Positions 2,716 to 45,365 of a stretch of DNA of 48,551 bases are shown piece by piece. Source of the stretch: Thiomicrorhabdus sp. (GTDB lineage: Bacteria; Pseudomonadota; Gammaproteobacteria; Thiomicrospirales; Thiomicrospiraceae); NCBI GenBank assembly GCA_027068835.1, contig JAMOLY010000035.1, positions 1 through 48,551 of the forward strand, given 5' to 3'. The notes beneath the pieces are model-generated. The model saw only the letters and a list, made by a program, of their open reading frames with translations. It did no database searches and had not been told where the DNA came from. The stretch's first letter is position 1; each line of letters starts with the position of its first letter. The position numbers and the translations under genes are program-made.

Positions 2716-2742
2716 ATCCCCTCTTTGTAGAAGGGGGGGGAT
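2716..2742. repeat. degenerate C-run/G8 inverted pair between recO and pdxJ
   Basis: ATCCCCTCT-TTGT-AGAAGGGGGGGGAT; G8 at 2733-2740. Confidence 0.6.
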
Positions 2743-2749
2743 ATTTTTT

Positions 2750-3484
2750 TTAATTGCGTTTAAAGCGCCCAAATAACTGTCGAGTCATCATGGGTTTTGT
2801 GCCTAAATAGGGGGTTAATACCGCTCTTAACAGCTGTTTTAATTGCGGCAAAGACGCTTCACAGTAACGCTGTTCTGCCAATGCCAATAAGCTCCGTCCG
2901 CTAATCAAAACTCCTGTTGCCAAACCATCTTGTTCAACACTCACCGCCCCGCTTTCAGGGTAAAAGTAGTAGTTGATCTCTGGGTTAATTGGCTGTTGTG
3001 CCATATCTTCATCGCACACCACGCCCTGCCCAAGTTCATTTAACAAATGGTATTCAAACAGCCGTAGCGCCCACGCTTGTTCATTGCGCGTTTTGGCCGC
3101 CAATAACTGGTATAAGGTTTGTTGATACTGTTCAAACAACGGTTCGGCCGCCACGTGTGAAAACAACAAACGGTACAGCAGTTCATTCAAATATAAGCCA
3201 CAAATACTTGCCTCTCCCGCTAAAGGAAAGTAAAGGCTGGCACGTTCAAATTGATGAATTGAGACAAGATCAGACGCTTTATTGGCTCGTTCTCGCCACT
3301 GCAATGTCAGCAGTTGAAACGGTTGCAGTAACGCAGATTTTTGTGAGGCAGTTTTTCTCCCCCCCCTTACACCACGAATAATGCCGTTAAATTTACCATA
3401 ATGGGGTGAAAAAAAGGTCACTAACGCACTGGTTTCTCGGTAAGCTCTGCTGTGCAACACAAAGGCGGGTTGCTCAATCTCCAT
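2750..3484 (-). CDS. recO: DNA repair protein RecO
   Basis: AFVLHSRAYRETS, LQPFQ, GLYLNELL, LRLFEYHLLNELG; era-recO-pdxJ synteny. Confidence 0.96.
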   Translation of the reverse strand: MEIEQPAFVLHSRAYRETSALVTFFSPHYGKFNGIIRGVRGGRKTASQKSALLQPFQLLTLQWRERANKASDLVSIHQFERASLYFPLAGEASICGLYLNELLYRLLFSHVAAEPLFEQYQQTLYQLLAAKTRNEQAWALRLFEYHLLNELGQGVVCDEDMAQQPINPEINYYFYPESGAVSVEQDGLATGVLISGRSLLALAEQRYCEASLPQLKQLLRAVLTPYLGTKPMMTRQLFGRFKRN

Positions 3485-3495
3485 CGTACTGGCGA

Positions 3496-4467
3496 TTAAC
3501 TGCTGTAGTTATCGTCATAGCCTAAGCTGGCTAAGGCACGTGCATCATCCGACCAGTTGGCTTTGACTTTTACCCACAGTTCCAAATGCACACGACCATC
3601 CAGTAAGGTAATCAAATCTTTACGCGCTTGCGTGCCCATCTCTTTAATGAGTGCGCCTTTTTTGCCAATGACAATTTGCTTTTGCCCTTTGCGTTCGACC
3701 AAAATAAGCGCGTTAATAAACCAACGCCCTTCCGCTTCGTCAAACTTAAACTGTTCAATTTCAACCGTTGCGCCATAAGGAACTTCTTCGCCCAAAGTTC
3801 TCATGAGTTTTTCGCGAATGATTTCGGAGGTTAAAAAACGTTGTGAACGATCCGTTATGTACTCTTCCGGAAAAATTTTCTCTTGGCGGGGTAGGTATTT
3901 AAGCACCTCTTTTTTAATCAAGTCCAAGCCACTTTTTTTATAGGCGGAGATGGGAATGAGCGTATCCATTTGGACGTTTTCACCCACGATTTGCAAAAAC
4001 GGAAACAGGTCTTCTTTATTTTTGTAGTTGTCGATTTTATTCATTAACACCACCACTGGGGTTTCAATGCCTTCCAGCTTTTTGGCGACGGCTTCGTCTT
4101 CTCTATTCCAACGCCCTGCTTCGACCACAAACAGAATCACATCCACATCGGCAAACGCACTGTTGGCGGTTCGGTTCATGTAATCGTTAATGGATTTCTC
4201 CCCCCCTAGGTGCATTCCGGGGGTGTCTACGTAAATAATTTGATGCTGATCGGTGGTGTAAATTCCGTGAATACGGTGGCGTGTGGTTTGAGGTTTGTGC
4301 GAGGTAATGCTGAGTTTTTGCCCCAACAACTCGTTCATAATGGTGGATTTACCCACATTTGGACGACCAATGACCGCGGCAAAACCCGTTTGATAGTCGG
4401 TTTTTGGCTCAGAAGCGGAATCATTGCCGCCCGCTAAAATGGCTTCTAAATCTAATTTCTTACTCAC
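3496..4467 (-). CDS. era: GTPase Era
   Basis: GRPNVGKST, DTPG, NKID, KH domain (VIGKKG), LELWVKVK. Confidence 0.98.
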   Translation of the reverse strand: MSKKLDLEAILAGGNDSASEPKTDYQTGFAAVIGRPNVGKSTIMNELLGQKLSITSHKPQTTRHRIHGIYTTDQHQIIYVDTPGMHLGGEKSINDYMNRTANSAFADVDVILFVVEAGRWNREDEAVAKKLEGIETPVVVLMNKIDNYKNKEDLFPFLQIVGENVQMDTLIPISAYKKSGLDLIKKEVLKYLPRQEKIFPEEYITDRSQRFLTSEIIREKLMRTLGEEVPYGATVEIEQFKFDEAEGRWFINALILVERKGQKQIVIGKKGALIKEMGTQARKDLITLLDGRVHLELWVKVKANWSDDARALASLGYDDNYSS

Positions 4468-4521
4468 GGTAATTCCTTTTATCTCTTAAACAGAAGTGTA
4501 ACCACACAGCTAGCTTAGTGG

Positions 4522-5232
4522 TTACACTTCGCCAAGTGCTTTAAGCGCCAACTCGGCGGCTTTCTGTTCTGCTTTTCTGCGATTAGATGCCGTAGCTTCA
4601 AACTTAGTATTAAGCTTTTCAACAAAACACGATACCGTAAACGACTGTGCATGTGCCGCGCCATTAACCGTAATAATGCTGTACTCAGGCAAGGGTTCAT
4701 TCCGAGATTGCAGCCACTCTTGCAGTCGTGTTTTTGGGTCTTTACCAATGTTTTTAGGGTCAAGCACTTCCAGACGTTTGTGGTACAAACGTGTCACTAA
4801 TGCTCGGCACGCATCTAAGCCCGCATCTTCGTAAACCGATGCAATAATGGCTTCAACCGCATCGGCAATGATAGAGTCTCGTCGAAAGCCACCACTTTTT
4901 AATTCGCCGGGCCCTAATACAAGGTAATCACTTAAGTTATATTCACGCCCAATCAATGCCAAGGTATCGCCTTTTACTAAGTGTGCGCGTACTCGGCTCA
5001 TGTCGCCTTCTGGCAGGTTGTTAAACTGGTGAAACAATACATCGGCAATCATAAAATTAACCAAGCTATCCCCTAAAAACTCCAACCGTTCATTGTTTTT
5101 AGCACCCATACTACGGTGCGTTAACGCATGTTGTAACAGACTAATGGATTGGTATTGATGCCCTAATTTTTTAGACAACAACCCCAATTTAGCCAAGCGT
5201 TCAACAGAGAGTTTTCCTGGTTTTTTAGCCAT
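4522..5232 (-). CDS. rnc: ribonuclease III
   Basis: NERLEFLGDS signature and C-terminal dsRBD (DPKTRLQE). Start placed at ATG 5232, just after the lepB stop. Confidence 0.97.
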   Translation of the reverse strand: MAKKPGKLSVERLAKLGLLSKKLGHQYQSISLLQHALTHRSMGAKNNERLEFLGDSLVNFMIADVLFHQFNNLPEGDMSRVRAHLVKGDTLALIGREYNLSDYLVLGPGELKSGGFRRDSIIADAVEAIIASVYEDAGLDACRALVTRLYHKRLEVLDPKNIGKDPKTRLQEWLQSRNEPLPEYSIITVNGAAHAQSFTVSCFVEKLNTKFEATASNRRKAEQKAAELALKALGEV

Positions 5233-5233
5233 G

Positions 5234-6004
5234 TTACTCAATACCTTTTCCGATACGGTTAAAATGAACGCCATTATCCCAGTTCATCCAAATACCAAAC
5301 GCTTGACCTTTTAAGTTCTTCTCTGGCACAAAGCCCCAAAAACGACTGTCGTTACTGTGATCTCGATTATCACCCATTACAAAATAGTGGCCTTCGGGAA
5401 CGGTAACGGTAGGCATGTTTATGGCTCTTTTATCCGTATCTAATAAAATCTGATGCCAACGATCTTTCGTAAAAGACTCTTTTAGCATTGAAGCTCCGTT
5501 CATCACACTGCCAGAATCGGTACCTAAATATTTACCGATTAACTCTGTTTTAACTCTTTCACCGTTAATAAATAAGGTGCGATCAATGTAGGTAATTTCA
5601 TCGCCCGGAATTCCTACCACACGCTTAATGTAGTCTATTTTAGGGTCATCAGGAAATTTAAACACCACCACATCACCACGCTCAGGCGTACTGACTGGAA
5701 TAATCGTGGTTTGAATTACGGGCAGTTTTACACCATAAGCAAACTTATTGACTACAATAAAATCGCCGATTTGCAGCGTTGGATACATGGAAGCCGAAGG
5801 AATTTTAAACGGTTCAATAATAAAAGAACGCAACACCAAGACAATCAAAAAGATTGGAAATAATGAGCGGGCATACTCAACAATAATCGGCTCTTTGGTC
5901 GCCACCACCGCTTTTAAACGTTTAGGGCGCCAAATAATTCGATCCACATACGCGATTACGCCACTTACCGCAGTCACAATAACTAAAATCAACTCAAAAC
6001 TCAT
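5234..6004 (-). CDS. lepB: signal peptidase I
   Basis: PSASMYPTL (catalytic Ser), DYIKRVVG (Lys), GDNRDHSNDSRFWG. Confidence 0.98.
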   Translation of the reverse strand: MSFELILVIVTAVSGVIAYVDRIIWRPKRLKAVVATKEPIIVEYARSLFPIFLIVLVLRSFIIEPFKIPSASMYPTLQIGDFIVVNKFAYGVKLPVIQTTIIPVSTPERGDVVVFKFPDDPKIDYIKRVVGIPGDEITYIDRTLFINGERVKTELIGKYLGTDSGSVMNGASMLKESFTKDRWHQILLDTDKRAINMPTVTVPEGHYFVMGDNRDHSNDSRFWGFVPEKNLKGQAFGIWMNWDNGVHFNRIGKGIE

Positions 6005-6006
6005 GA

Positions 6007-7809
6007 CTACTCTCCCGTATCCAAAATCGCCAAAAAGGCTTCTTGTGGCAGCTCAACATTCCCGACGGATTTCATACGTTTCTTCCCTTCTTTTTGCTTT
6101 TGCAATAATTTTTTCTTACGTGATACATCGCCACCATAACACTTAGCGGTTACATTTTTACGCAATGCTTTTATATTAGAACGTCCAATAATCTTGGCAC
6201 CAATCGCCGCTTGAATCGCCACATCAAACATCTGACGAGGAATGACCTCTTTTAATTTCTCAACGATGACCTTACCGCGCTGTGCCGCAAAATCACGATG
6301 CACAATCACGCCCAGTGCATCCACTTTTTCGCCATTGATTAAAAAGTCCATGCGCACCAAGTTATCCGTTTGAAAACGTCTAAATTCATAATCCATCGAG
6401 GCATAACCACGGCTACAGGATTTTAAGCGATCAAAGAAATCCAACACCACCTCATTTAAAGGCAGTTCATACTGAATGGTGACTTGCCCCCCCGAGTACT
6501 GCATGTCTTTTTGCACACCGCGTTTTTCAATACACAGCTTCATCACCGACCCTACATATTCATTAGGCACTAAAATACTGGCATGAATAATCGGTTCTCT
6601 AATCTCTTCCACCAAGCCCATATCAGGCAGTTCGGATGGGTTATCAATGGTTAAAAGTTCCCCCCCCTTGGTTAGCACCTCGTAAATAACCGTGGGCGCG
6701 GTCACAATTAAATCAATATTGTATTCGCGCTCTAAACGCTCTTGCACAATCTCCATATGCAACATACCCAAAAAACCACACCTAAAACCAAAGCCTAACG
6801 CCTCAGAGCTTTCTGGCTCAAAATGCAACGCCGCATCGTTTAAACGCAGTTTACGCAACGATTCGCGTAACTCTTCATACTGCACTGAAGAGATGGGAAA
6901 CAACCCTGCAAAAACACGAGGTTGCACCGCACTAAACCCAGGCAATGCCTCCACATCTTCTCTGGAGGCATCCACCAATGTATCACCAACGGGGGCGCCG
7001 TCAATGTCTTTAATACCTGAGATCACATACCCCACTTCACCCGCGTTTAAAGAGTCAGTTGGTGTACGTTTAGGAGTAAATATGCCGACTTCATCCACCG
7101 CATAGACTTCTTTAGTGGACATAACTTTCATTTTGGTTTTTTTAGCAATGCGACCGTCCACCACTCTTACCAACGAGACCACACCTAAATAATTATCAAA
7201 CCAAGAGTCAATAATTAAAGCTTTTAAAGGCGCTTCGGGATCTCCACTAGGGGGGGGGATTTTTGCGACAATTTCTTCTAAGGTCTCTTTAATACCAATT
7301 CCTGCTTTGGCACTAGCTCTAACCGCATCTACCGCCTCAACCCCAATAATTTCCTCTATCTCTTCAATCACTCTTTCTGGTTCTGCCGCAGGTAAATCAA
7401 TTTTATTAAGCACCACCAGCACTTCAAGCCCTTGCTCAATTGCGGTGTAACAGTTGGCAACGGTTTGTGCTTCCACGCCTTGAGAGGCATCCACCACCAA
7501 CAACGCGCCTTCACACGCGGCAAGCGAGCGAGACACTTCGTACGAAAAATCCACGTGACCGGGAGTATCAATAAAGTTCAACTGATAGGTATGACCGTCA
7601 TCCGCCTTATAATCTAACGTAACACTTTGCGCCTTAATGGTAATACCGCGCTCTTTTTCAATGTCCATCGTATCCAGCACTTGCGCTTCCATCTCACGAT
7701 CCGATAACCCGCCACATAAGTGAATAAAGCGATCTGCAATGGTGGATTTACCATGGTCAATATGGGCAATGATAGAGAAATTACGAATAAATTTTAAATT
7801 GTCTGACAC
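6007..7809 (-). CDS. lepA: translation factor EF-4 (LepA)
   Basis: [52 protein letters not shown]. Probable GTG start at 7809 with a GGAG RBS. Confidence 0.98.
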
Positions 7810-7824
7810 TGAATGCTCCAAATA

Positions 7825-7875
7825 TTTCCCCCCCCCCCCTCTTTAAATTATTAAATTAGATAGGGGGGGGTAAAA
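7825..7875. repeat. C12/G8 inverted pair upstream of lepA
   Basis: TTT-C12 (7828-7839)-TCT...AGATA-G8 (7863-7870)-TAAAAA. Confidence 0.75.
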
Positions 7876-7892
7876 AATACAATCTATAAAAA

Positions 7893-7912
7893 AAGGGGGC
7901 TATTGCCCCCTT
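7893..7912. terminator. GC hairpin, terminator-like on the minus strand
   Basis: AAGGGGGC-TATT-GCCCCCTT; the A-run at 7888-7894 gives a U-tract on the minus strand. Confidence 0.55.
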
Positions 7913-8119
7913 ATCCTTACCCTATTTATCGAGACTTTTAAAAATCGCGATACAGAGTAAGGTTTGGTTTAAATTTAATGTCGCATATTTTACGCTAATT
8001 TCATTCATTTCGCATGGATTAATACCTGATGCACTCGGTAGAAATGGTTAGCCTTAAGAATCAACGCAATATCTGTCTAAACTCACTTACCTTTTTTTAT
8101 TTTTCACGCTAAAAAATAT

Positions 8120-8149
8120 AAAAAAGCCTGCTATTTAACGGGCTGTTTT
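8120..8149 (-). terminator. probable intrinsic terminator of lysC
   Basis: Minus strand AGCCCGTTAAATAGCAGGCT followed by TTTTT, just after the lysC stop. Confidence 0.5.
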
Positions 8150-8168
8150 ATGAAAAGAAAATGAATTT

Positions 8169-9395
8169 TTATTTATCCAATCCAAACGCTTCGTGCAACG
8201 TTTGTACAGCCACTTCAAGGTGCTCTTCGCCGATGACGACCGAAATTTTAATCTCGGTCGTCCCAATCATTTGTATATTAATTTCATTGTCTGCCAAGGT
8301 TTTAAACATGGTGCTGGCGATGCCTGCATGGGATTTCATGCCTACTCCTACCATGGAAATTTTAACGATTTCATCGTCCATTAACACTTCACGCGCGCCT
8401 AGATGATTGGCGGTGCTTTGTAAAACCGCTTTGGCGGCTTCGGCATCCAAGCGACTCATGGTAAAGGTAAAGTCGGTGGTGCCGTCCACGCCTTGGTTTT
8501 GGATAATCATGTCAATATCAATATTGGCATCGGAGATAGGGCCTAAAATTTGATAGGCAACACCAGGCTTGTCTGGCACGCCTAAAATCATCAGTTTGGC
8601 TTCATCTCGACTGAATGCAATGCCTGAAATTAATGGTTTTTCCATCTCACTTTCCTTAAAATTTTCTTCCGATGTAATTAATGTCCCCCCCCCCTCTTTT
8701 AATGAGGAGAGTACACGCAACGGTACTTTGTATTTACTGGCAAATTCAACCGAACGAATTTGCAACACTTTTGCGCCCAAACTGGCGAGTTCGAGCATTT
8801 CATCATAGGTAATTTGATCTAAACGTTTGGCTTGAGGTACTACACGAGGATCAGTGGTATACACGCCGTCCACATCGGTGTAAATTTGACACTCGTCGGC
8901 ATTCAATGCCGCCGCCAATGCAACCGCGGTGGTATCCGAACCACCACGCCCTAAGGTGCTAATGTCACCTTCGGGGTTCATGCCTTGAAAACCAGCCACA
9001 ATGACAACTTTTCCCTGTCCCAGTTGGTCAAGTATTTTGGTGCCATCAATGTGTTCAATTCGAGCTTTGGAGTGTACTTTATCGGTCTGGATTGGCACTT
9101 GCCAACCCGTGTAAGAGATAGCGGGGTAGCCTTTGGCTTGCAATGCCATGCTTAACAAGGCAATGGTGACTTGTTCGCCTGTGGTTAACAGCACGTCCAT
9201 TTCACGTTTACAGGGCTGCGCTTGCATCTCATTTGCCATGGCGGTTAACCGGTTGGTTTCACCGCTCATGGCAGACACCGTAACTACGACTTGGTGTCCG
9301 TCGTCCACAAATTTGGCCACTTTATTGGCTACATTTTGAATACGCTCGACACTGCCGACCGATGTTCCACCGTATTTTTGAAAAATTAATGCCAT
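8169..9395 (-). CDS. lysC: aspartate kinase
   Basis: QKYGGTSVG, TLGRGGSDTTAVALA, YTDVDGVYTTDPR, two ACT domains. Confidence 0.97.
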   Translation of the reverse strand: MALIFQKYGGTSVGSVERIQNVANKVAKFVDDGHQVVVTVSAMSGETNRLTAMANEMQAQPCKREMDVLLTTGEQVTIALLSMALQAKGYPAISYTGWQVPIQTDKVHSKARIEHIDGTKILDQLGQGKVVIVAGFQGMNPEGDISTLGRGGSDTTAVALAAALNADECQIYTDVDGVYTTDPRVVPQAKRLDQITYDEMLELASLGAKVLQIRSVEFASKYKVPLRVLSSLKEGGGTLITSEENFKESEMEKPLISGIAFSRDEAKLMILGVPDKPGVAYQILGPISDANIDIDMIIQNQGVDGTTDFTFTMSRLDAEAAKAVLQSTANHLGAREVLMDDEIVKISMVGVGMKSHAGIASTMFKTLADNEINIQMIGTTEIKISVVIGEEHLEVAVQTLHEAFGLDK

Positions 9396-9438
9396 AATTT
9401 TAAATACTTTTTATACGTTATTTAGAGTAATTCAATAT

Positions 9439-9493
9439 TTCTCCCCCCCCCCTATTTAAACTTAATACATTTAAACATAGGGGGGGGGGAGAA
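9439..9493. repeat. perfect 17-bp inverted repeat built from C10/G10
   Basis: TTCT-C10-TAT (9439-9455) and ATA-G10-AGAA (9477-9493), between alaS and lysC. Confidence 0.85.
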
Positions 9494-9522
9494 TTTTTTT
9501 GAACATATTTTATCTTTGCCTG

Positions 9523-12114
9523 TTACTTAGACTCAACCCAAGCCACCACCGACTCCAATGCCGCCGCCAATTTGCTGGGATCGTTTCCACCCGCTTGCGC
9601 TAAATCGGGACGGCCGCCGCCTTTGCCACCCACTTGAGTGGCAACGTGATTCACAAGTTCGCCCGCTTTGTACTGCTTTGTTGCCGATTTACTAACCCCT
9701 GCCACAATGCTAATTTTATCGCCATCTACCGCAGACAAGACAATCACCGCAGGTTCCAGTTTATCTTTAAGTTTATCCATGGTATCACGTAACACACCGC
9801 TGTCGGCACCCTCCATCTTGACGGCTAAGACATTTACCTCGCCCACTTTCACCGCTTGACTGGCCATGTCGTTGCCTTGCGATACCGCCAGTTTGGATTG
9901 CAGTTGTTTCAGCTCTTTTTCAAGCGTTTTGTAATCGCTCACCATTTGGGTGATTTTGCTCTCAATTTGGCTTTTGTCTGTTTTAATCGTTTGTGCAACC
10001 AAAGCGAGCGTGTCGTCACTTTGGTAGATGGCATTCCACGCATCCAATCCTGTGACCGCTTCAATTCGACGCACACCTGAGGCGATGCCACTTTCCGATA
10101 CAATACGGAACGGGCCAATTTCACCCAGTGCATTCACGTGAGTTCCACCGCACAGCTCAATGGAAAAATCGCCCATATCGACCACTCGAACGGTGTCGCC
10201 GTATTTTTCGCCAAACAGTGCCATCGCGCCTTTGTCTTTGGCGGTTTCAATGTCCATCTCCGCCATGCCCACTTTGGCATTGGCTAAAATGTGTTGATTC
10301 ACTAACTGTTCAACTTGACGTAACTGCTCGGTCGAAATCGGTTCAAAATGTGAAAAATCAAAACGTAAACGATCCGACTTAACCAGTGACCCTTTTTGCC
10401 CCACATGCGCCCCCAAAATATCACGCAATGCAGCGTGTAAAAGATGGGTGGCGGAATGATTGCGTTCACAGGCACGGCGATTTTCAACATTCACCTTGGC
10501 ATGAAGCACTTGGTTTACGTTCATCGCCCCCGCCGAGACTACGCCTTGATGCAAAAAGAGCGACCCTTGTTTTTGGGTATCATTTACATGAAAGCTGTTC
10601 ATGCCTTCGGTTAAACTGCCGCTGTCACCCGCTTGTCCACCCGATTCTGCATAGAATGGGGTGCTGTCTAAAATAATGATGGCTTCTTTACCCTGCTCAA
10701 CTGATTGCACTGACGCGCCTTCCACAAAAATCGCCAGTATTTTCGCGTCGGCTTCGTCATTGTCGTACCCTACAAACTGCGTTTCAGCATCAAAGGCGAT
10801 GCGCGCTTGACTGCTTGAGCCAAAATTACTGGCCGAACGTGCGCGTTCACGCTGTGCTTCCATCGCTTGTGCAAAGCCTGATTCGTCAATCGACAATCCT
10901 TTTTCACGCGCCACATCGGCGGTTAAATCCAGCGGAAAACCGTAGGTGTCGTACAATTTAAAAGCAACGTCACCATCCACAACTGTTCCATCCATGTCGG
11001 CAATGTACGCTTCCAACAGTTTCATGCCGTTCTCTAAGGTCTCAGCAAAACGCTCCTCTTCCAGCTTTAATACACGTTCAACATTGGCTTGTTCTGAGGC
11101 CAGTTCAGGATAAGCTTCGCCCATCTGTTCCACTAAGGTGGCAACCAAATTGTAAAAGAATGGATTGGTTTGTCCCAACTTGTAGCCATGACGAATCGCA
11201 CGGCGAATGATGCGACGCAATACATAGCCTCGCCCTTCATTTGAGGGCAATACGCCATCGGCAATGGTAAAGGCACACGAACGAATGTGATCGGAAATCA
11301 CGCGTAGGGAGTTGTTGCTCAGGTCTTGCTCACCCGTTAAGTGTGAGGCCTTTTTAATTAAGGCTTGAAACAGATCAATATCATAGTTGTTATGCACGCC
11401 CTGCATCACCGCAGCCAAACGCTCTAAGCCCATGCCCGTGTCCACGGAAGGCTTAGGCAAAGGCGTTAAGGTGCCGTCACTGGAACGATCAAACTGCATG
11501 AAAACGAGGTTCCAAATTTCAATGTAGCGATCGCCGTCCTCTTCGGGGGTACCCGGTGGGCCGCCTGCAACGTCTTCGCCGTGGTCGTAAAAAATTTCAG
11601 AGCATGGGCCACAAGGCCCTGTATCGCCCATCGACCAAAAGTTGTCTTTGGCGCCACAGCGTGAAAAACGTTCAGAGCTGACCTTCATCTCTTTTAGCCA
11701 GATATCCGCGGCTTCGTCGTCCTCTTCAAAAACAGTGACCCATAACTTGTCTTCAGGCAAGTTTAAGGTTTTGGTTAAAAACTCCCACGCAAACTCAATC
11801 GCTTCTTTTTTAAAGTAATCGCCAAAGCTAAAGTTACCGAGCATTTCAAAAAAAGTGTGGTGACGAGCCGTATACCCTACGTTCTCTAAATCGTTGTGTT
11901 TTCCACCCGCGCGAATACAGCGTTGCACACTGGTTGCACGCGTGTAAGCACGAGGTTCTTGGCCTAGAAATGTCTCTTTAAACGGCACCATTCCTGCATT
12001 GGTAAACAATAACGTGGGATCATTGGCTGGCACCACAGGACTGGAATGCACGACGGTATGATTTTTTTGAATGTAAAAATCAAGAAATGCTTGTCTGAGT
12101 TCTGAGCTCGTCAT
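9523..12114 (-). CDS. alaS: alanine--tRNA ligase
   Basis: [60 protein letters not shown]. Confidence 0.99.
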
Positions 12115-12135
12115 AATGTTAATAACCTTAAAAAT

Positions 12136-12723
12136 TTATTTCCGAAATGCTTTCCAGATAATTTCTGAAGAAAACCCTCGGCTTTGTAAAAATCGCATAC
12201 GTTTTGCTTGTTCTTTTTTTTCGGTTGGGTGCTGAACATCCCCGTATTTTTTAAGTAATACGTCTTGCGCTAATGCCAGCCATTCACTGTCGTCCCAATC
12301 TAAATACGTCGCAATCAAATCACTTCGATCCGATGCCACGGTTAACTTTTGGCGTATTTTAATGGGGCCACTGCCTTTTGCCGCCCAGTTACGAACCGAT
12401 TGTTCAATGTAACGCTCGTCACTTTGCCAGTTATTGGCTTGGCAATGCTGCAATACATCGTCCACTACCAAAGCAACAAACCCCGACACTTCTTGATACT
12501 CTGCCAACAACTCAGGCGTTTCAGGAAACTTAGTCAACAGTTTAGACTTTAGCTCTTTCGCACCGTGCTCTCGAATGCCCAATAGGTAAACCGCGCGCGA
12601 TTCAATTTGTTTCTGTAATTTAAATTTATCCCCCCCCTCTTCAAGCAAGGGGGGGGATAAATTTTCAAGCTCATCTGAGACAGAAAACCCGATCTCTTTT
12701 AAAAAGTCTTCGGCTTGTTTCAA
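12136..12723 (-). CDS. recX: regulatory protein RecX
   Basis: LLGIREHGAKEL, QSDERY, GPIKIRQKL, KRMRFLQSRGF; directly after recA. Start (TTG) uncertain. Confidence 0.9.
   Translation of the reverse strand: MKQAEDFLKEIGFSVSDELENLSPPLLEEGGDKFKLQKQIESRAVYLLGIREHGAKELKSKLLTKFPETPELLAEYQEVSGFVALVVDDVLQHCQANNWQSDERYIEQSVRNWAAKGSGPIKIRQKLTVASDRSDLIATYLDWDDSEWLALAQDVLLKKYGDVQHPTEKKEQAKRMRFLQSRGFSSEIIWKAFRK
12622..12664. repeat. perfect 17-bp C8/G8 inverted repeat inside recX
   Basis: AAATTTAT-C8-T (12622-12638), 9-nt loop, A-G8-ATAAATTT (12648-12664). Confidence 0.85.
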
Positions 12724-12726
12724 GGC

Positions 12727-16405: not shown

Positions 16406-19024
16406 ATGACAAAAGCAAAGACACAATCCTCTTCTACACCCACTCACACACCCATGATGCAACAGTACCTTGCCATCAAATCTGAACACCCAGACCATCT
16501 ACTGTTTTACCGAATGGGTGATTTTTATGAGTTATTTCATGATGACGCTAAAAAAGCCTCTGAACTATTGGAAATTACCTTAACCGCGCGAGGAAAATCG
16601 GGCGGCAATGCGATTCCGATGGCGGGTATTCCACATCATTCGGCTGAAGGATATTTGGCTAAATTGGTTAAGCTTGGGGTGTCAGTTGCAATTTGTGAAC
16701 AAGTGGGCGACGTGGCCACCAGCAAAGGGCCAGTGGAACGCAAAGTGGTTCGAGTCATTACACCAGGTACCTTGGTTGAGGATGCATTACTCGAAGATAA
16801 ATCCGAAAACTTATTGGCCGCTATCACACAACAAGGCGAATTTTATGGACTGGCGTATCTGGACGTTGCCAGTGGACGATTTGAAACCGCTGAACTCGAA
16901 ACACTCGCCCATCTGTACGCCGAAATTGAACGCATTAAACCTTCAGAACTTCTCTTGCCCGATGACGATCTTTTTAGACAATCTCTCGACGAATCGCTGT
17001 TAAAACGCGCGGGCGTTGTGCGTTATCCTAGTTGGCACTTTGAAGCCAAAAGCTGTTTTAAACGACTCACCGATCACTTTGGTACCAAAGATTTAATCGC
17101 TTTTGGTTGCAACCAAAAACTTGCGGCCATCAGTGCAGCGGGCAGTATTTTGCACTATGCGCAAAGCATGTTACAAAATACTTTGGGGCATATCCATACC
17201 CTGCAAACCTATTCAACCGAAGACAGCTTGGTACTGGATGCTATCAGCCGCCGAAATCTTGAAATTGACACCAATTTAAGTGGTGGCATAAATAATACTT
17301 TAGCGGCCATTTTAGACCAAACCGCCACGGCGATGGGGGGGAGACTTTTAAAACGCTGGTTAAATCAACCGCTTCGTAACCACGATGTTATTAACGGACG
17401 TTTAGATGCCATTAGCGCAATACTTGAACAACAAAGTGACGAAGACTTTCGCCAACCACTCAAAAAAATTGGTGACTTAGAACGTATTTTAAGCCGCGTG
17501 GCACTGATGTCTGCCCGCCCAAGAGACCTATTACATTTAGGGCGGTCACTCAATACCTTACCTGAATTACAAGCGCTACTGACACAACATTCGGTGCCAA
17601 AATTTCAAGCACTCGCTCAAAAAATCAATACCTTTCCCAAACTGGCAAAACTACTCGATGATGCCATTATTGAAAACCCGCCCATATTAATTCGAGATGG
17701 TGAAGTCATTGCCGAAGGCTACGACGCAGAGCTGGATACGTTAAGAAACCTCAAAAACGAGGCAGGAGGCTATCTCTTAGATTTAGAACAACGCGAACGT
17801 GAACGTACGGGCATTAATACACTTAAAGTCGGTTACAACCGTGTGCACGGTTACTACATTGAAATCAGTAAACTGCACATCGCACAAGTGCCAGCGGAGT
17901 ACATTCGCCGTCAAACCCTAAAAGCACAAGAACGCTACATTATTCCAGAACTGAAAACCTTTGAAGACAAAGTGTTAAGTGCGGGGGAAAAATCGCTTGC
18001 GCGTGAAAAGTGGCTCTATCAGCAACTGTTGGAAACGCTGAATAAATCATTGCAACCGTTACAAACCAGCGCCGCCGCCTTGGCCGAGCTGGACGTACTG
18101 GTCAACTTAGCATTGCAAGCAAAAGCACTCAATCTAACCCGCCCCGTCTTAACCGAACAAACGGGCATTAACATTGTACAAGGCCGCCACTTGACCGTCG
18201 AAGCGCTCTCAAGCGAACCGTTTATCCCTAACGACACGCTCTTTACCACAGAGCGACAACTGCAAATTATTACAGGGCCGAATATGGGAGGTAAATCCAC
18301 CTATATGCGCCAAACTGCGTTAATTACCTTAATGGCGTTTATGGGCAGTTTTGTGCCCGCAGAGTCCGCAACGCTTGGCCCCGTGGATCGCATCTTCACC
18401 CGAATTGGTGCATCCGACGATTTAACCTCAGGTCGCTCTACCTTTATGGTTGAGATGACGGAAACCGCCAATATTTTGTATCACGCCACTCACAATTCAC
18501 TGATTTTAATGGATGAAGTAGGACGTGGAACCTCTACCTTTGACGGATTAGCACTGGCTTGGGCAATTGCCGAACACATGGCGTTAAAAACCAAAGGATT
18601 GTGTCTGTTTGCCACGCACTACTTTGAACTGACGACCTTGGCAGAACAGTTTAACAACACTATTAACGTTCACTTAGATGCCATTGAGCACCAAGACAGC
18701 ATTGTCTTTTTACATCAAGTGCAAGAGGGGGCAGCCTCACAAAGTTATGGTTTACAGGTCGCCGCTTTAGCAGGCATCCCACAACCTGTAATTCAAAAAG
18801 CCAAAGAGGTGCTGTATCGCCTTGAGAACCAAAATGTGCAACAGAGCACATTAACACTGCCATTAGAACAAGCATCCGTACAGCAGTTTGATCTGTTTGC
18901 CGCACAAGTTGATCCAACGCTAGAGCAACTGAAAACTAAGCTACAAACCATTCAACCCGATGAAATGACACCTAAAATGGCGCTAGAAGTCCTTTATGAG
19001 TTAAAAGAGATCGTATTGCCCTGA
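16406..19024 (+). CDS. mutS: DNA mismatch repair protein MutS
   Basis: [46 protein letters not shown]. Confidence 0.99.
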
Positions 19025-24084: not shown

Positions 24085-24125
24085 TTTTTTACCCCCCCCC
24101 CTATCAAAAGGGGGGGGGTAAAAAA
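24085..24125. repeat. C10/G9 inverted pair downstream of infB
   Basis: TTTTTTA-C10-TATCAAAA-G9-TAAAAAA. Confidence 0.85.
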
Positions 24126-33691: not shown

Positions 33692-34729
33692 CTATAACGG
33701 TTCAGATTCATACTTCACGGCTTTATCTCGCATGACTTGCAAATCAGACTCTTTAAGCAGCTGACGATCCATATTATAAAGCCGCCCTTGCAAACGTTGC
33801 GAAATCTTACGCGCCATCATAATTAAATCATGCATGGCCGCAGGTGCCTTTACGGTACAGGGTAATTCTAAAATCATCGCCACACCACAGGTTGTATAAT
33901 TTTGTAACTCATCTGCTGGAAAAGTCCCAGGCTCCATCAAGTTAGCTACTTTAATAATCGTATTATTCATGTTATCGCACTTTACATAAATCTGACTTTC
34001 ATTAAAAGACAATCCAACACCCAACAAAGCGTGGTTCATCTCCTGCATCGAAAACTCTTGCCCCGTGCTCATGACTAAAATAACAAATACTTGAGGTTCT
34101 TTTTTCTCTGCACGGCTTTCAACTTCAGTACTAGGCTCCTCTTCGGGAATACCAAAAGAGGGCTTTTCATGTTCGGGTGCAACGTATTGATACTTCCCTC
34201 CCGTCATCCCAAGATCTTCCACCTCCAGCACGTGATGGTGTCCACCGAGTGGATTTTTATTTACCGTATTTTCTGTCTCTTCACTTTCTGCTCTATCATT
34301 TAAAGGCTCGGATACATGCATTTTTGGCGCTACATCTTCTTGTCTTAAACTGCCTTGAACAGCCTCTTTTTCAATATTTTTACCCCCCCCCTCTTCAGAC
34401 GAAGATACAACAGAAATTTCAGCCTGATTAAACTCTTCACCAAAGGGTAGAACCGCTTGATTTTTGTTTACTTCTGGGACATCCAAATCGTTATCCTGTT
34501 TTGCAATACGCGTTTCAGTATTTTTTGAGACAGGAATATGTGGTTCGCCTAACTCATTTAAAGCTTGAGACGCTTTTTGATAAGAGACTTCTGATTCGGC
34601 TCTTTTTTGTACGTTTTTTTGTTTATCCGCCTCTTTTTTAAGCGCTGTTTGTCGGCTACGACTCAAAAAATAAAGACCAATGACTACGACAATGGCAAAA
34701 ATAAGTAAAACCTGCTGTAACTCGTTCAT
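33692..34729 (-). CDS. zipA: cell division protein ZipA
   Basis: N-terminal TM anchor, disordered linker, C-terminal FtsZ-binding domain (VANLMEPGTF); upstream of ligA. Confidence 0.85.
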   Translation of the reverse strand: MNELQQVLLIFAIVVVIGLYFLSRSRQTALKKEADKQKNVQKRAESEVSYQKASQALNELGEPHIPVSKNTETRIAKQDNDLDVPEVNKNQAVLPFGEEFNQAEISVVSSSEEGGGKNIEKEAVQGSLRQEDVAPKMHVSEPLNDRAESEETENTVNKNPLGGHHHVLEVEDLGMTGGKYQYVAPEHEKPSFGIPEEEPSTEVESRAEKKEPQVFVILVMSTGQEFSMQEMNHALLGVGLSFNESQIYVKCDNMNNTIIKVANLMEPGTFPADELQNYTTCGVAMILELPCTVKAPAAMHDLIMMARKISQRLQGRLYNMDRQLLKESDLQVMRDKAVKYESEPL

Positions 34730-34962
34730 GTATTCTTCGACTCCAAAACACGAATTTTTAAAAGATGACTTCGCTCAAATGATTACTCAGAAAGTTCTCA
34801 AGCAATATCCGAATAATTGTACCTTTTATCCCCCCCCTATTTCCAGCAAATTACGTAAATCGACCATCTATTTTAAACATTTTATTCACGGTTCAAAGTC
34901 ACGCATTATAATGAACACACAATAATAACCACAAAAACTCGGGTACATAGGAACCAGCAAAC

Positions 34963-36403: not shown

Positions 36404-36769
36404 ATGACTCATGAAAACCCAGTAGACCAGCTTATTCAACAACTCAACCAAACACCCGTTGATTTTAAAAAAGTCATGGAAGTGATTGAAAACGGTTATG
36501 ATTTTAGCCCAACCGAGTTTAAAAATGGCAAGCTAACCAATACAGAAAACAGCAATAACGGCTCTTGCAAAATATTTGCCTTTGGGCAACTCAATCAACT
36601 GTCTGAACAAGCGACACTGAATGCCTTTGGTGAGTTTTACACAAAAGACGTATTAGAAAACCCCAATGGAGACGATCATCAAAACATTCGTAACTTCATG
36701 CAATTTGGCTGGCAAGGCATTACGTTTAAAAAATCTGCGTTAACAAAATCAGAACCAATAAATGAATAA
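36404..36769 (+). CDS. HopJ-family protein
   Basis: F.PTEFKNG, NNGSCKIFAF, FGEFY..DVLENPNGDDHQNIRNFMQFGW. Confidence 0.88.
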   Translation: MTHENPVDQLIQQLNQTPVDFKKVMEVIENGYDFSPTEFKNGKLTNTENSNNGSCKIFAFGQLNQLSEQATLNAFGEFYTKDVLENPNGDDHQNIRNFMQFGWQGITFKKSALTKSEPINE

Positions 36770-36849
36770 CATTAGAAAAAAAAAGGGGGGGGGGGAATTT
36801 TTTTAAACTAAACCGTGTATAAAAGATCGCTCTCGACAAAAATACTAAA

Positions 36850-39596: not shown

Positions 39597-39651
39597 AATT
39601 CAGATTTAAAACAAGTCATGAGCCAAGAATAAAGCGTTAATAAAGTTAAGC

Positions 39652-39963: not shown

Positions 39964-40142
39964 AAAATTTTTGCCTGTCCTAAGAAATTTTTTATTGTCC
40001 GCTATCATAATGCAGTATGTAAACTATCTCAACCGAGAAATCATCCAATTAGACTTTTAATCCAATAAAGCTCAAAACTGAACCTTGAATATCGCTATAA
40101 TATTCGGTTATCTTTTAAAGGACAGGTTGGGAAAAAAATCAC

Positions 40143-42227: not shown

Positions 42228-42266
42228 CACCTTTCAATCTACGTTGTAGTAAGGATACCGCCCATC

Positions 42267-42845
42267 ATGCAAGAGTACGTTTTAATTTTAATCAGTACCG
42301 TACTGGTTAACAATTTCGTATTGGTTAAGTTTTTAGGACTTTGCCCCTTTATGGGTGTGTCTAAAAAAACCGATGCTGCACTGGGCATGGGCTTGGCAAC
42401 TACCTTTGTGTTAACCCTGTCCTCGGTATTAAGTTACATCATTTTCAACTATCTACTGCAACCTTTTGGACTGGAATATCTGCAAACCATCGCCTTTATT
42501 CTTGCTATTGCGGCGGTAGTAGGCTTTACTGAGATGGCCGTTCATAAAACCAGCCCTACGCTGTATCAAGTATTGGGCATTTACCTCCCCCTAATTACCA
42601 CCAACTGTGCGGTACTAGGGGTGGCGTTGTTAAATGTTACAGAGAACAACAACTTTTTAGAGTCAGCGTTTTTTGGTTTTGGTGCCGCCGTTGGCTTTAC
42701 CTTAGTGATGGTACTATTTGCCTCATTGCGAGAGCGCATTGATGCCTCCGATGTGCCCGCCCCTTTTAAAGGCGCACCCATCGCATTAATTACCGCAGGG
42801 TTGATGTCTATGGCCTTTATGGGATTTGGAGGAATGGTTCATTAG
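42267..42845 (+). CDS. rnfA: Rnf/Rsx complex subunit A
   Basis: [31 protein letters not shown]. Confidence 0.96.
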
Positions 42846-43401
42846 TATTACCGCCGCCATTCTTATTTTTGTTGGGCTTGCCATCGTATTTGGCTTATTA
42901 CTCGGATATGCCGCCGTTCGCTTTAAAGTGGAAGGCAACCCGATGGCTGAACAGATTGATAAAATTTTGCCTCAAACCCAATGTGGTCAGTGTACCTTCC
43001 CCGGTTGCAAACCTTACGCCGAAGCACTCGCCAAAGGTGAAACCGAAGTTAACCTCTGTATCCCTGGTGGCACCGATACGATGATACTCATCTCTGAAAT
43101 AACAGGGCTTGAACCTAAAGAGGTGGAAGTCACCGAAGCCGAGCATAAACCCAAAGAGACCGCTTTTATTGATGAAGACGTTTGCATTGGCTGTGTTTTG
43201 TGCATTAAAGCCTGCCCCGTTGATGCCATTTTAGGCGCGACCAAGCTCATGCACACCGTCATTCAATCCGAGTGTACTGGGTGTGATAAATGCGCTCCCG
43301 TCTGCCCTGTAGACTGTATTGATATGCGCGCCCCACCAGTCTCCCTTGAAAACTGGCAGTGGCCGGAACCCACAATAAAATCAGAAGGAGAGGCAAAATG
43401 A
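42826..43401 (+). CDS. rnfB: Rnf/Rsx complex subunit B
   Basis: [13 protein letters not shown] and two CxxCxxCxxxCP motifs. Start uncertain. Confidence 0.95.
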
Positions 43402-45365
43402 GTTCGATATTTATGCAAGCGTTCGTTCGCCCCCTCTCCATTATCTACCCCATGGCAAAACGTTGGTTACACCGTTTTCATGGTGGAGTGTTTCCTAAAA
43501 CGTACAAATCACTCTCTTTAAAACACCCAATTCGATCCACAGTCATTCCAGAGAAGTTAATTTTGCCCGTTAAACAACTCACAGGGCAAAAAATAGCATG
43601 GCACGTCGCCATTGGCGATACAGTACAAAAAAACCAATGCTTAATCAGTGCGGCAAAAGAGAATAAAAAAGGCATTATTGTCCCGATTCACGCCCCCACA
43701 TCGGGGGTAATTCACGCCATTGAAATGATGTCTTTGCCGCATCCGTCTGGGTTAAGTGCCTTGTCAATTATTATCAAACCCGATTTGAAAGACACCGCAC
43801 TTAACAATGTACTTAATGTCAGTGGAAAAGTTCCCGAAACCCCGCAACAGCTTAAGGACATTTTGCTTAATGCAGGCATTGTCGGATTAGGTGGCGCAGG
43901 GTTTCCAACCTTTGCCAAACTGCCCAATCAAACAGGCATAATTAACACCCTCATTATTAACGGAGCCGAGTGCGAACCTTTTATTACCTGCGATAATTTA
44001 TTGATGCAAACACAAGCACAAGATATTCTAAACGGCGCAATCATGGTAGCTCAAACACTGGGCATACCGTCCATTATTTGTGGTATTGAAGAAAACAAAC
44101 CCACCGCGATTCAAGCGATGAATGCCGCAGCGGCAACCCTCTTAAAAAACACACCTAACCTTAGCATTACCATCCAAACCTTACCAGCCGTCTACCCCAT
44201 GGGGGGGGAAAAACAACTGATTAAAGAGCTAACGGGCATTGAAGTTCCCGCAAAAACACACGCCATTGACAGCGGATTGCTGGTTTTTAACGTTGCCACC
44301 TTTGCCGCTATTTTTAAAGCCATCACGCTTGGAGAGCCTCTCACACAACGTTTGGTGACCATTGCTGGCTTAGGCTTAAAACATTCTTACAATACCAACG
44401 CCCTGATTGGCACGCCTTTTCTCACCTTAGCCAAGGCGGGAGAGCCGATCCATCCCATACAAACCCCACTGATTATGGGCGGCCCCATGATGGGATTTCA
44501 AGTGGCCGACAATCAAGTGCCCGTCATTAAAACCACCAACTGCATTTTGGTGCAACCGCCCGAACCCGCCACAGAAACCATCGTCATGCCCTGCATTCGC
44601 TGTGGTGAGTGCATGGACGCTTGCCCCGTTAACTTACTCCCACAGCAGATGTTTTGGCACAGTCAAGCCCATGAGTTTGAAAAGGTTGAAAAACTCAATG
44701 TTTTTGACTGTATTGAGTGTGGCTGTTGCAGTTACGTCTGCCCCAGTCACATACCACTGGTGCAGTTTTACCGTCATGCCAAGTCTGAAATCAAACACAT
44801 TCATGCCGAACAACAAGCGGCCGAGTTAGCCAAACAGCGCCATGAATTTCGATTGGCGCGTATTGAGCGCGAAAAACAAGAACGTGAAGCACGTATTAAA
44901 GCGAAAAAAGCCGCTGTTAAAAAACAAGCCTCAGAAGCGGAAAAACCCAGTGGCGCATCTTCGGCCAAATCTGCCGCCATAAAAGCCGCCGCAGCACGAG
45001 CGGCCGCAAAACGCGCAACTCAGCAGGGTTCGGAACAAAATGTAAACGAAATTTCTCCCCCCCCCCTATCCGCACGCCAAAAAGCCATTGAAACGGCTAA
45101 AAAACAAGCGGCGGCTAAAGTAGGTTCTAAAGTTGCCCCCAATAAAGACCCCAGAACCTCAGCCAAGCAAGCGGCCAAAAAAGCCGCTGCCATGGCCGCG
45201 GCAAAACGCCGTACCCAAACAAACCACGAGAACAATTCCGACGCAACGTCCAAAATAGATTCAAAACAAGCGATGAATGATAAACGCAAACAAGCCATGG
45301 AAACCGCTAAAAAACGTGCCGCTGAACGAAAAGCGCGTAAAGCAGAACAGGAGCCCCCTAAATGA
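43398..45365 (+). CDS. rnfC: Rnf/Rsx complex subunit C
   Basis: FHGG, HAPTSG, GLGGAGFP, NGAECEP, CIRCGEC, CIECGCCSYVCPS, Ala/Lys-rich tail. Confidence 0.96.
   Translation: MSSIFMQAFVRPLSIIYPMAKRWLHRFHGGVFPKTYKSLSLKHPIRSTVIPEKLILPVKQLTGQKIAWHVAIGDTVQKNQCLISAAKENKKGIIVPIHAPTSGVIHAIEMMSLPHPSGLSALSIIIKPDLKDTALNNVLNVSGKVPETPQQLKDILLNAGIVGLGGAGFPTFAKLPNQTGIINTLIINGAECEPFITCDNLLMQTQAQDILNGAIMVAQTLGIPSIICGIEENKPTAIQAMNAAAATLLKNTPNLSITIQTLPAVYPMGGEKQLIKELTGIEVPAKTHAIDSGLLVFNVATFAAIFKAITLGEPLTQRLVTIAGLGLKHSYNTNALIGTPFLTLAKAGEPIHPIQTPLIMGGPMMGFQVADNQVPVIKTTNCILVQPPEPATETIVMPCIRCGECMDACPVNLLPQQMFWHSQAHEFEKVEKLNVFDCIECGCCSYVCPSHIPLVQFYRHAKSEIKHIHAEQQAAELAKQRHEFRLARIEREKQEREARIKAKKAAVKKQASEAEKPSGASSAKSAAIKAAAARAAAKRATQQGSEQNVNEISPPPLSARQKAIETAKKQAAAKVGSKVAPNKDPRTSAKQAAKKAAAMAAAKRRTQTNHENNSDATSKIDSKQAMNDKRKQAMETAKKRAAERKARKAEQEPPK

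What the first reader, a model, noticed from the sequence alone, without database searches (positions are those of the whole stretch)
2733..45066. Dispersed asymmetric motif A-G(8-12)-AT-rich tail, distributed like an undescribed DNA uptake or protein-recognition sequence
Seen: 18 G/C runs of >=8 nt by eye. G on + at 2733, 7250, 7863, 9480, 12649, 24110, 36785, 44201; C on + at 3359, 6660, 7828, 8685, 9443, 12630, 24092, 34383, 34830, 45057. There are also seven 7-mers (4200, 6487, 17335, 25504, 30047, 35459, 38829). A rough random expectation with G and C each near 0.21 is about 0.3 runs of >=8. Read on the G strand, 17/18 are preceded by A and all 18 are followed by an AT-rich tail (AGAAA, ATAAA, TAAAA; A at +3 in 15/18), so this is a motif rather than bare slippage. 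Nine copies lie in frame in recO, lepA (x2), lysC, recX (x2), zipA and rnfC (x2) as GGG-GGG or CCC-CCC codons. There is no clear strand bias. Established: Neisseria DUS and Pasteurellaceae USS are dense, two-stranded, tolerated in coding sequence and paired as intergenic inverted repeats, and USS has AT-rich flanks. Inference: a novel uptake-type signal, or a site for a nucleoid or other DNA-binding protein.
Basis: partly seen in the sequence, partly recalled or inferred. Interest (0 to 1): 0.85.

Follow-up and report, generated by a model that had tools for sequence, protein, structure and literature searches.

The report
Poly-G dialect of family-wide DNA tag
This vent sulfur bacterium carries about 630 copies of a run of 8-12 Gs with an AT-rich tail, written even into its proteins, while most relatives carry the palindrome CCAGGCCTGG or intermediate spellings instead; this is likely a species-specific "self" tag for DNA uptake like those of Neisseria and Haemophilus, but uptake is untested and the protein that reads it is unknown.

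Summary
Confirmed and genome-wide: 633 G/C runs of 8 or more in 2.15 Mb (about 12 expected; A/T runs are not long), consensus A-G(8-12)-W-[AGT]-AAWTT, in all six frames, five times denser between genes, no polarity beyond GC skew. In genes, runs are ten times a protein-preserving shuffle, the tail is favoured at silent sites, and most runs arose by substitution, often changing amino acids. Contigs from three studies hold the stretch. The organism is Thiomicrorhabdus-like. Of 99 family genomes, 44 carry 236-1,193 copies of CAGGCCTG, 12 carry G-run forms, 6 asymmetric intermediates and 1 another palindrome; none carries two. One recX site reads PGLV, PSLV, PNLV or PPLV according to the genome's word. 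G-run forms arose at least twice. Competence genes are present; no methyltransferase tracks the word; RecC was not found. Best reading: a lineage-specific DNA-uptake signal spread by molecular drive (about 50%). Against it: no receptor found (the pilins are acidic and also occur in motif-less genomes), and this genome's runs lie mostly away from old palindrome sites, so its link to the palindrome is inferred.

The parts
2733..2740 (+). G8 site, intergenic recO-pdxJ; one base longer in two other runs
3359..3366 (-). G8 site in recO (AGG GGG GGG AGA); synonymous change against L001 (AGA GGG GGG CGA)
6660..6667 (-). G8 site in lepA (AAG GGG GGG GAA, KGGE; KNGE in L001)
7250..7258 (+). G9 site in lepA, read as ATC CCC CCC CCT (IPPP; ATC CCA CCG CCA in L001)
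7828..7870 (.). inverted pair C12 ... G8, tails outward, lysC-lepA spacer
8685..8694 (-). G10 site in lysC (GAG GGG GGG GGG; GAG GGT GGC GGT or similar in relatives, same EGGG)
9443..9489 (.). inverted pair C10 ... G10 in the alaS-lysC spacer, kept as C8 ... G8 in sister G067
12630..12656 (.). inverted pair C8 ... G8 inside recX (SPPLLEEGGD), shared with G067 and G068
24092..24118 (.). inverted pair C10 ... G9 between infB and rbfA (inside an operon, no U-tract)
34383..34391 (-). G9 site in zipA
34830..34837 (-). G8 site, intergenic upstream of zipA
36785..36795 (+). G11 site, intergenic
44201..44208 (+). G8 site in rnfC (the one preceded by T)
45057..45066 (-). G10 site in rnfC
12136..12723 (-). 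recX: holds the orthologous site where relatives read PGLV / PSLV / PNLV / PPLV by dialect (decayed to SGFV here)
16406..19024 (+). intact mutS: holds the orthologous site CCA GGC CTG GT (palindrome genomes), CCC AGC CTG (G015), CCC AAC CTG (G022), GCA GGG GGG GTA (G072); decayed here

Best explanation
The motif A-G(8-12)-W-[AGT]-AAWTT is this lineage's spelling of a family-wide highly iterated DNA word, and it likely acts as an uptake or transformation signal that spreads by molecular drive. Shown: about 630 copies, both strands, all frames, built mostly by point substitutions that also change amino acids, and mutually exclusive with the family's palindrome AAAnTnAC-CAGGCCTG-GTnAnTTT and with intermediates (CCAGGCTGGG, CCAGGTTGGG, CCAGGGGTGG, CCA-G7-T, GAGCA-G7). 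Inferred: a sequence-reading protein of the type IV pilus / ComEA / ComEC route favours DNA carrying the word, homologous recombination then fixes mutations toward it, and changes in that protein shifted the preferred word. All spellings but one contain A-GG-nnn-GG, the outer GG being only a strong preference in some palindrome genomes, and the full palindrome is that element on both strands, so relaxing symmetry would free the middle bases to become GGG. Once a run exists, slippage likely spreads its length (indels were seen at intergenic runs).
For: Excess and flanks: (362 CDS runs against a mean of 36 in 20 synonymous shuffles; AT bias at silent sites at -1, +1 and +3..+8, z 3.8-7.2; internal mismatches to the G8 core almost absent; tail asymmetry only from G7 up). 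Substitution origin: (42 coding sites with orthologues: 12 same amino acids, 23 changed without gap, 7 near a gap); tripeptides shifted (PPP 12 vs 2, EGG 28 vs 17, PGL 13 vs 33, QAW 4 vs 16 in 67,965 aligned residues). Distribution: 371 of 633 in CDS, 0.99 vs 0.20 per kb non-coding vs coding, 48 opposite-strand vs 11 same-strand neighbours within 100 nt, no extra polarity, Poisson-like spacing. Dialects; in-place conversion at recX and mutS sites following the tree. Family-specific: ACCAGGCCTGGT at most 5 times in any of the 397 sampled Gammaproteobacteria outside the family. Machinery: comEC, comEA, dprA, pilB/pilT/pilU, secretin and pilins in G000.
Against: No uptake data; a literature search listed no paper showing natural transformation in the family. 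No receptor: the minor pilins are net acidic (to -61), hypervariable, do not follow the dialect and are also in motif-less genomes; ComEA does not track dialect; comEC, dprA, pilB/T are present with or without a word. Known DUS/USS are not palindromes (PMC1939737 passage), whereas the family's ancestral word is. G000's runs overlap only 1 of 82 orthologous palindrome positions (0.64 expected), so for this clade descent from the palindrome rests on mutual exclusion, the shared tail and the parallel series in genus g3. Depletion in restriction-modification islands is weak (4 vs 6.6 expected, p 0.22).
Confidence: 0.5

Rival explanations
1. Drive acting after entry or during repair. An intracellular enzyme (AddAB as with Chi, or a nicking or mismatch-repair partner as in Elhai's ratchet for HIP1) favours the strand or fragment carrying the word, so it accumulates without surface selectivity.
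For: AddAB-type genes present and RecC not found in the 5 genomes tested each. It gives the same genomic signature as uptake drive. Elhai proposes such a ratchet for HIPs (PMC4390886 passages).
Against: No polarity beyond skew, while Chi is typically polarised (PMC8022716 passages). 22 of 44 palindrome-rich genomes have neither a C5 (PF00145) nor an N4/N6 (PF01555) methyltransferase, and a methylase site cannot pass through CCTGG, TTGGG and GGGGG. AT tracts 5-12 bp from the core suggest shape read-out.
Confidence: 0.25
2. Binding site of an abundant chromosome-organising or regulatory protein. A homodimer binds the 24-bp palindrome and its variants bind the asymmetric forms; sites are kept by ordinary selection.
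For: The ancestral word is a long spaced palindrome like a dimer site. Five-fold intergenic enrichment and inverted pairs with outward tails.
Against: No ori/ter gradient (23 stretches of 20 kb round G049: mean 5.0, variance 6.3) and no regular spacing. The word is repeatedly lost in close sisters (G077 vs G049, G074 vs G047). Hundreds of sites override amino acids in mutS and recX. A G-run cannot be read symmetrically.
Confidence: 0.15
3. Mutational artefact of replication: slippage or dislocation mutagenesis purifies and lengthens G runs after loss of repair.
For: Run lengths vary from 7 to 22, intergenic runs show indels between populations, and 7 of 42 coding sites lie near in-frame gaps.
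Against: mutS is intact and mutL present. A/T runs are not long in G000. Flanks are asymmetric, favoured at silent sites and differ by lineage. G-runs replace, never accompany, the palindrome. Other G-run-rich Pseudomonadota show geometric decay without flanks.
Confidence: 0.06
4. Sequencing or assembly artefact (two-colour poly-G) or footprint of a small mobile element.
For: G000 is a fragmented metagenome bin; 15 of 633 runs lie within 20 nt of contig ends.
Against: Reading frames are intact, orthologous runs are shared with sister genomes, contigs from three studies cover the stretch, and 35 of 42 coding sites align without gaps.
Confidence: 0.01

Closest known systems
USS of Pasteurellaceae (H. 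influenzae AAGTGCGGT plus T-tracts)
   Same: GC-rich core with AT tract; 59% vs 65% in ORFs; about 11% vs about 10% in inverted pairs; intergenic excess; no orientation bias; encoded tripeptides raised (PMC1939737 passages, PMC2817400 abstract and outline, PMC3458573 passages).
DUS dialects of Neisseriaceae (ComP receptor)
   Same: Lineage-specific dialects that follow the phylogeny and alter encoded amino acids (PMC3630211 passages).
   Different: No ComP-like basic pilin seen; DUS has 3 copies here; the dialects here go from palindrome to asymmetric word to homopolymer, and the word is often lost altogether.
HIP1 and alternate HIPs of cyanobacteria, including CAGGCCTG of Synechococcus PCC 6312
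   Same: The family's main word has the same octamer at a similar density (0.2-0.5 per kb vs 0.37; PMC5861425 passages); in genes and spacers; HIP1 raises transformation and is proposed as an uptake signal (PMC13756078 passages).
   Different: Gammaproteobacteria; extended AT flanks; no tracking methyltransferase; no even spacing seen; G000's own form is not a palindrome.
Chi and KOPS
   Same: G-rich, dispersed, core-genome words.
   Different: No polarity beyond GC skew, no ori-ter gradient for the palindrome, RecC not found, about 50-fold excess.
Phase-variable poly-G tracts (Campylobacter, Neisseria contingency loci; recalled)
   Same: G8-G12 homopolymers that slip.
   Different: Hundreds of copies, in frame in housekeeping genes (lepA, lysC, recO), fixed flanks, mismatch-repair genes present.

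Membership tests
DNA uptake sequences (DUS/USS) | Hundreds to thousands of copies, far above composition and codon nulls | tested here: met
   633 vs about 12; 362 vs 36 in CDS
DNA uptake sequences (DUS/USS) | Both strands, no replication polarity, spread over the chromosome | tested here: met
DNA uptake sequences (DUS/USS) | Accumulates in coding DNA by point mutation and shifts peptide frequencies | tested here: met
DNA uptake sequences (DUS/USS) | Intergenic excess with about 10% in inverted pairs | tested here: met
   (48 pairs among 884 runs of 7 or more); most pairs lie between co-directional genes and were not shown to be terminators
DNA uptake sequences (DUS/USS) | Lineage-specific dialects | tested here: met
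DNA uptake sequences (DUS/USS) | Competence machinery encoded | tested here: met
DNA uptake sequences (DUS/USS) | Absent from recently acquired genes | tested here: inconclusive
   4 vs 6.6 expected in 33 kb of restriction-modification islands
DNA uptake sequences (DUS/USS) | Sequence-specific surface receptor | tested here: inconclusive
   pilins and ComEA compared in 14 and 10 genomes, no candidate; whole proteomes of relatives not compared
DNA uptake sequences (DUS/USS) | Motif raises DNA uptake | not testable with these tools
   needs an uptake assay
Highly iterated palindromes (HIP1 type) | Palindromic octamer at 0.2 per kb or more | tested here: not met
   not met for G000 (CAGGCCTG 5 copies; its motif is asymmetric), met for 44 of 99 relatives at 236-1,193 copies
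Highly iterated palindromes (HIP1 type) | Cognate methyltransferase | tested here: not met
   22 of 44 palindrome-rich genomes have neither PF00145 nor PF01555; other methylase families not searched
Highly iterated palindromes (HIP1 type) | Quasi-periodic spacing | tested here: not met
   pair distances match random placement in G000 contigs and in 23 stretches of G049; short contigs limit power
Chi / KOPS | Strong leading-strand polarity | tested here: not met
   61-69% vs 67-72% background
Chi / KOPS | RecBCD present | tested here: not met
   recC 0 of 5; AddAB-type genes 5 of 5
Phase-variable homopolymer tracts | Few tracts, in surface or contingency genes, switching frame | tested here: not met
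   371 in-frame coding copies incl. housekeeping genes; no coding indel among the 12 of 19 indel rows shown

The most novel reading that the evidence does not exclude
A third bacterial family with a true DNA-uptake signal, in free-living vent and marine sulfur oxidisers. Its ancestral form is a HIP-like palindrome and its receptor has repeatedly changed specificity, ending at least twice in a poly-G word. This would join HIPs and uptake sequences into one mechanism and provide a natural series (palindrome, asymmetric, homopolymer, loss) in which to find a new kind of DNA receptor.
Probability: 0.4. Interest if true: 0.92.

Novelty: new variant of a known kind. Interest (0 to 1): 0.8.

Why it matters
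Proven sequence-specific uptake signals are known from Neisseriaceae and Pasteurellaceae, and the function of HIP1 has been open for decades (PMC5861425 abstract; PMC13756078 passages). Here one family shows a HIP-type palindrome turning stepwise into asymmetric uptake-sequence-like words and into a homopolymer, rewriting the same codons in recX and mutS as it goes, and being lost in close sisters. That makes two questions directly testable: whether palindromic and asymmetric iterated words share one drive mechanism, and what protein reads them (sister pairs with and without the word; dialect swaps). Practically, adding the cognate word might improve transformation of these carbon-fixing bacteria, and the words are species-level binning markers.

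Tried and rejected
Classical USS/DUS words: not enriched. 16S for identification: not assembled. Loss of mismatch repair: mutS intact, mutL present. KOPS/Chi polarity: none. Methyltransferase link: none. Receptor by presence/absence: comEC 92 of 98, dprA 98 of 98, pilin-like cluster 88 of 98, comEA and pilB/T in all 5 of each tested set; G077's missing pilin cluster also lacks miaB, so it is probably an assembly gap. Minor pilins and ComEA do not co-vary with dialect; a list of basic exported G000 proteins gave no clear candidate. Same-strand kilobase spacing, as noted for another genome in this scan: not seen. In-place descent of G000 runs from palindromes: not supported (1 of 82). G-rich Pseudomonadota outside the class with many AG8 (up to 298): 10 genomes sampled, geometric length decay and no flanks, so a different phenomenon. 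Viral contigs: 7 and 5 loci for the two extended patterns, no link to G000 proteins, uninformative. Restriction avoidance (CCGG 0.22-0.38, GGCC 0.34-0.75 in G-run genomes vs 0.88 and 0.76 in palindrome genomes) may have favoured leaving the palindrome, but asymmetric and motif-less genomes also avoid GGCC and CCWGG, so it stays a lead. No structure or complex prediction was run, as there was no candidate reader.
Full report
1. Observation. The window is G000:C35 of a 2.15-Mb, 317-contig, 42% GC bin. It holds housekeeping genes: recO, era, lepA, lysC, alaS, recX, recA, mutS, infB, ligA, zipA, rnf and recJ. Genome-wide there are 633 G/C runs of 8 or more against about 12 expected, with a bump at 7-10 rather than geometric decay; A/T runs of 10 or more number 8. 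On the G strand 84% are preceded by A and followed by W-[AGT]-A-A-W-T-T-T; coding and non-coding copies give the same logo.

2. Not an artefact. Only 15 of 633 runs are within 20 nt of a contig end. Contigs of four runs from three studies cover window 2000-13000; one run may be the source. Among the 12 of 19 indel rows shown, those at runs fall on the intergenic ones (2733, and the 7828-7870 pair) and none is in a gene. Sister genomes share orthologous runs.

3. Selection or drive on the DNA itself. With my own gene calls (2,059 genes, 88% coding), 371 of 633 runs are in CDS, in all six frames, at 0.20 per kb against 0.99 per kb outside. In 1,741 well-scored genes there are 362 runs against a mean of 36 in 20 protein-preserving codon shuffles; GGG-GGG is 471 vs 118 expected and CCC-CCC 252 vs 65. 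At silent positions the flank is AT-biased at -1, +1 and +3 to +8 (z 3.8-7.2; also -3, z 3.0) and not beyond +8. Internal mismatches in the G8 core are almost absent, and the tail is asymmetric only from G7 up. Of 42 coding runs with an orthologue in palindrome-type relatives, 12 keep the amino acids, 23 change them without a gap and 7 lie near a gap. Neighbours within 100 nt are on opposite strands 48 times and the same strand 11 times (p 1e-6); other distances match random placement. Runs lie 61-69% on the G-rich strand, like G4-G6 runs (67-72%).

4. Organism and relatives. The best named LepA match is a Thiomicrorhabdus MAG at 89% (NCBI lineage; the GTDB family name Thiomicrospiraceae is recalled, and the coded genera were not named by any search). 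AGGGGGGGG is abundant in 12 of 99 family genomes (33-528) and at most 26 in the rest. Flanks differ by lineage: A-G8-12-WRAAWTT (G000, G061-63, G067, G068), TTTSAGCA-G7-10 (G072), AAAATCACCA-G7-T (G028), AAAAAnGCCA-G7-T (G027), TTTTAGA-G8-22-TAAAAA (G030) (20-158 kb per genome).

5. The family word. Genomes without G-runs mostly carry a palindrome instead. CAGGCCTG occurs 236-1,193 times in 44 of 99 genomes and at most 31 times in each of the 12 G-run genomes (a note in my notebook says 46, the recount is 44). In G049 its logo is AAAnTnAC-CAGGCCTG-GTnAnTTT; 66 of 115 copies lie in long ORFs and it is uniform round the chromosome. Six more genomes carry asymmetric forms (CCAGGBKKGG 124-429 copies; CCAGGCTGGG, CCAGGTTGGG and CCAGGGGTGG seen in G015, G016/G022 and G032), and G050 carries ACCGGCCGGT (28 in 60 kb). 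So 63 of 99 genomes have one word, none has two, and 22 of 23 in genus g3 have one. Of the other 36, 15 were sampled (14-63 kb each) without finding such a word; 21 were tested only with the three patterns. ACCAGGCCTGGT occurs at most 5 times in the 397 sampled Gammaproteobacteria outside the family. AG8 reached at most 38 in the same-class genomes of a 400-genome phylum sample; GC-rich genomes of other classes with many G-runs lack the bump and the flanks (10 genomes).

6. Evolution. A FastTree of AlaS+LysC+RecA+MutS for 43 of the 99 genomes, rooted on genus g6, makes the palindrome ancestral. In g3 it runs palindrome (G013, G014, G020), CCAGGCTGGG (G015), CCAGGTTGGG (G016, G022), CCAGGGGTGG (G032), CCA-G7 (G028, G031), bare G-run (G019, G030). 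In g1 the G000 clade (support 1.0) sits beside palindrome genomes, and G072's place is unstable (0.63-0.65). G-runs therefore arose at least twice (no topology test run), and the word was lost several times (G053, G077, G074, G046/G060, G029, a larger g1 group). One recX site reads CCA GGC CTG GT (PGLV), CCC AGC CTG GT (PSLV), CCC AAC CTG GT (PNLV) or CCC CCC CTG GT (PPLV) by dialect; one mutS site reads PGLV, PSLV, PNLV or, in G072, GCA GGG GGG GTA (AGGV). Against a simple story: in G000 these old sites have decayed, and its runs overlap only 1 of 82 orthologous palindrome positions (0.64 expected); 4 of 20 G072 runs overlap a G000 run (0.15 expected). G000's sites arose anew at Gly-Gly and Pro-Pro positions. 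Its tail (W-n-A-A-W-T-T-T) resembles the palindrome's right arm (T-n-A-n-T-T-T); this link is inferred.

7. Mechanism. A word that rewrites hundreds of codons, switches spelling by lineage and decays when apparently no longer read needs a sequence-reading protein and a drive. G000 encodes ComEC, ComEA, DprA, PilB/PilC/secretin, PilT/PilU and a pilin cluster, and its distribution matches USS point by point (PMC1939737 passages; PMC2817400 abstract and outline; PMC3458573 passages). I therefore favour uptake-biased molecular drive (0.5). The receptor was not found. The minor pilins are acidic, hypervariable and present in motif-less genomes (output cut, 13 of the 14 loci seen in full); ComEA does not track dialect; whole proteomes of relatives were not compared. 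Methylation-linked models fit poorly: 22 of 44 palindrome-rich genomes lack both PF00145 and PF01555. RecC was not found and AddAB-type genes are present, so a post-entry or repair drive remains (0.25). A nucleoid protein (0.15) fits the long palindrome but not the even spread, the repeated loss or the homopolymer. Slippage alone (0.06) fails on intact mutS, present mutL, short A/T runs and lineage-specific flanks, though it likely sets run length.

8. What is known. CAGGCCTG is reported as an alternate HIP in Synechococcus PCC 6312 (PMC5861425 and PMC13756078, passages). DUS dialects are described in PMC3630211 (passages), the HIP ratchet in PMC4390886 (passages), Chi polarity in PMC8022716 (passages), DUES statistics in bioRxiv 10.1101/2025.10.24.684340 (passages), and ComN as predicted USS receptor in PMC12616744 (listing only). 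Searches listed no paper that reports an iterated palindrome, poly-G word or uptake sequence in Thiomicrospira, Thiomicrorhabdus or Hydrogenovibrio. The library lacks most subscription papers, and supplements were not read; the octamer list in the supplement of PMC8022716 could bear on this. Unchecked notes from this scan describe iterated words in other lineages, so such words may be commoner than published; none concerns this family.

9. Verdict. Real, family-specific and apparently undescribed. It works like an uptake sequence by every genomic test I could run, but cannot be filed as a DUS/USS until uptake is shown; G000's form is not a HIP. New variant of a known kind; interest 0.8.

Noticed in passing
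G000:C306 and G000:C120: C306 carries pilins of a different type and no G-run; C120 carries a second mutL. Both may be contaminant contigs in the bin.
   Followed up: no
G000:C171, C189: Ribosomal-protein and pheST/thrS contigs have no run of 8 or more (2.5 and 2.3 expected); the most codon-adapted fifth of genes has the lowest density, 0.13 per kb.
   Followed up: partly
G000:C212: 28-kb contig with genes that look like formate dehydrogenase and periplasmic nitrate reductase clusters (by eye) has 1 run against 8.2 expected; perhaps recently acquired.
   Followed up: no
L101 (G030:C32): ComEA of G030 has a 45-residue Lys/Ser-rich, histone-like C-terminal tail absent from nine relatives; genus g1 ComEAs carry a Cys pair in the helix-hairpin-helix region.
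   Followed up: no
L126:9721-16909 (G000:C235): Pilin cluster between miaB and a porin: major pilin, two-component pair and 3-4 large acidic Cys-rich pilin-like proteins that vary in number and length between species (30-60% identity); duplicated in G053, G084 and G050.
   Followed up: partly
G000 whole genome: Strong avoidance of CCGG (0.22), GGWCC (0.24), CCWGG (0.38) and many 6-bp palindromes, stronger in G-run genomes than in palindrome genomes.
   Followed up: partly
window 36404-36769 +: 121-aa ORF matching Pfam HopJ (PF08888, E 8e-46) in a free-living vent bacterium.
   Followed up: no
L146-L157 (G099, G164, G168, G498 and kin): A cluster of Pseudomonadota families outside Gammaproteobacteria has 50-300 AG8 per genome without flanks, i.e. 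little of the usual avoidance of G/C runs.
   Followed up: partly
L240 (IMG/VR contig): A viral contig holds 6 CAGGCCTG in 10 kb, above the host-like density; host not examined.
   Followed up: no
L097 (G052:C10): A repeated unit of about 30 or more bases occurs about 7 times near recA/alaS (tandem or CRISPR-like).
   Followed up: no
G078: No comEC match in a 99%-complete genome that also lacks the word.
   Followed up: no
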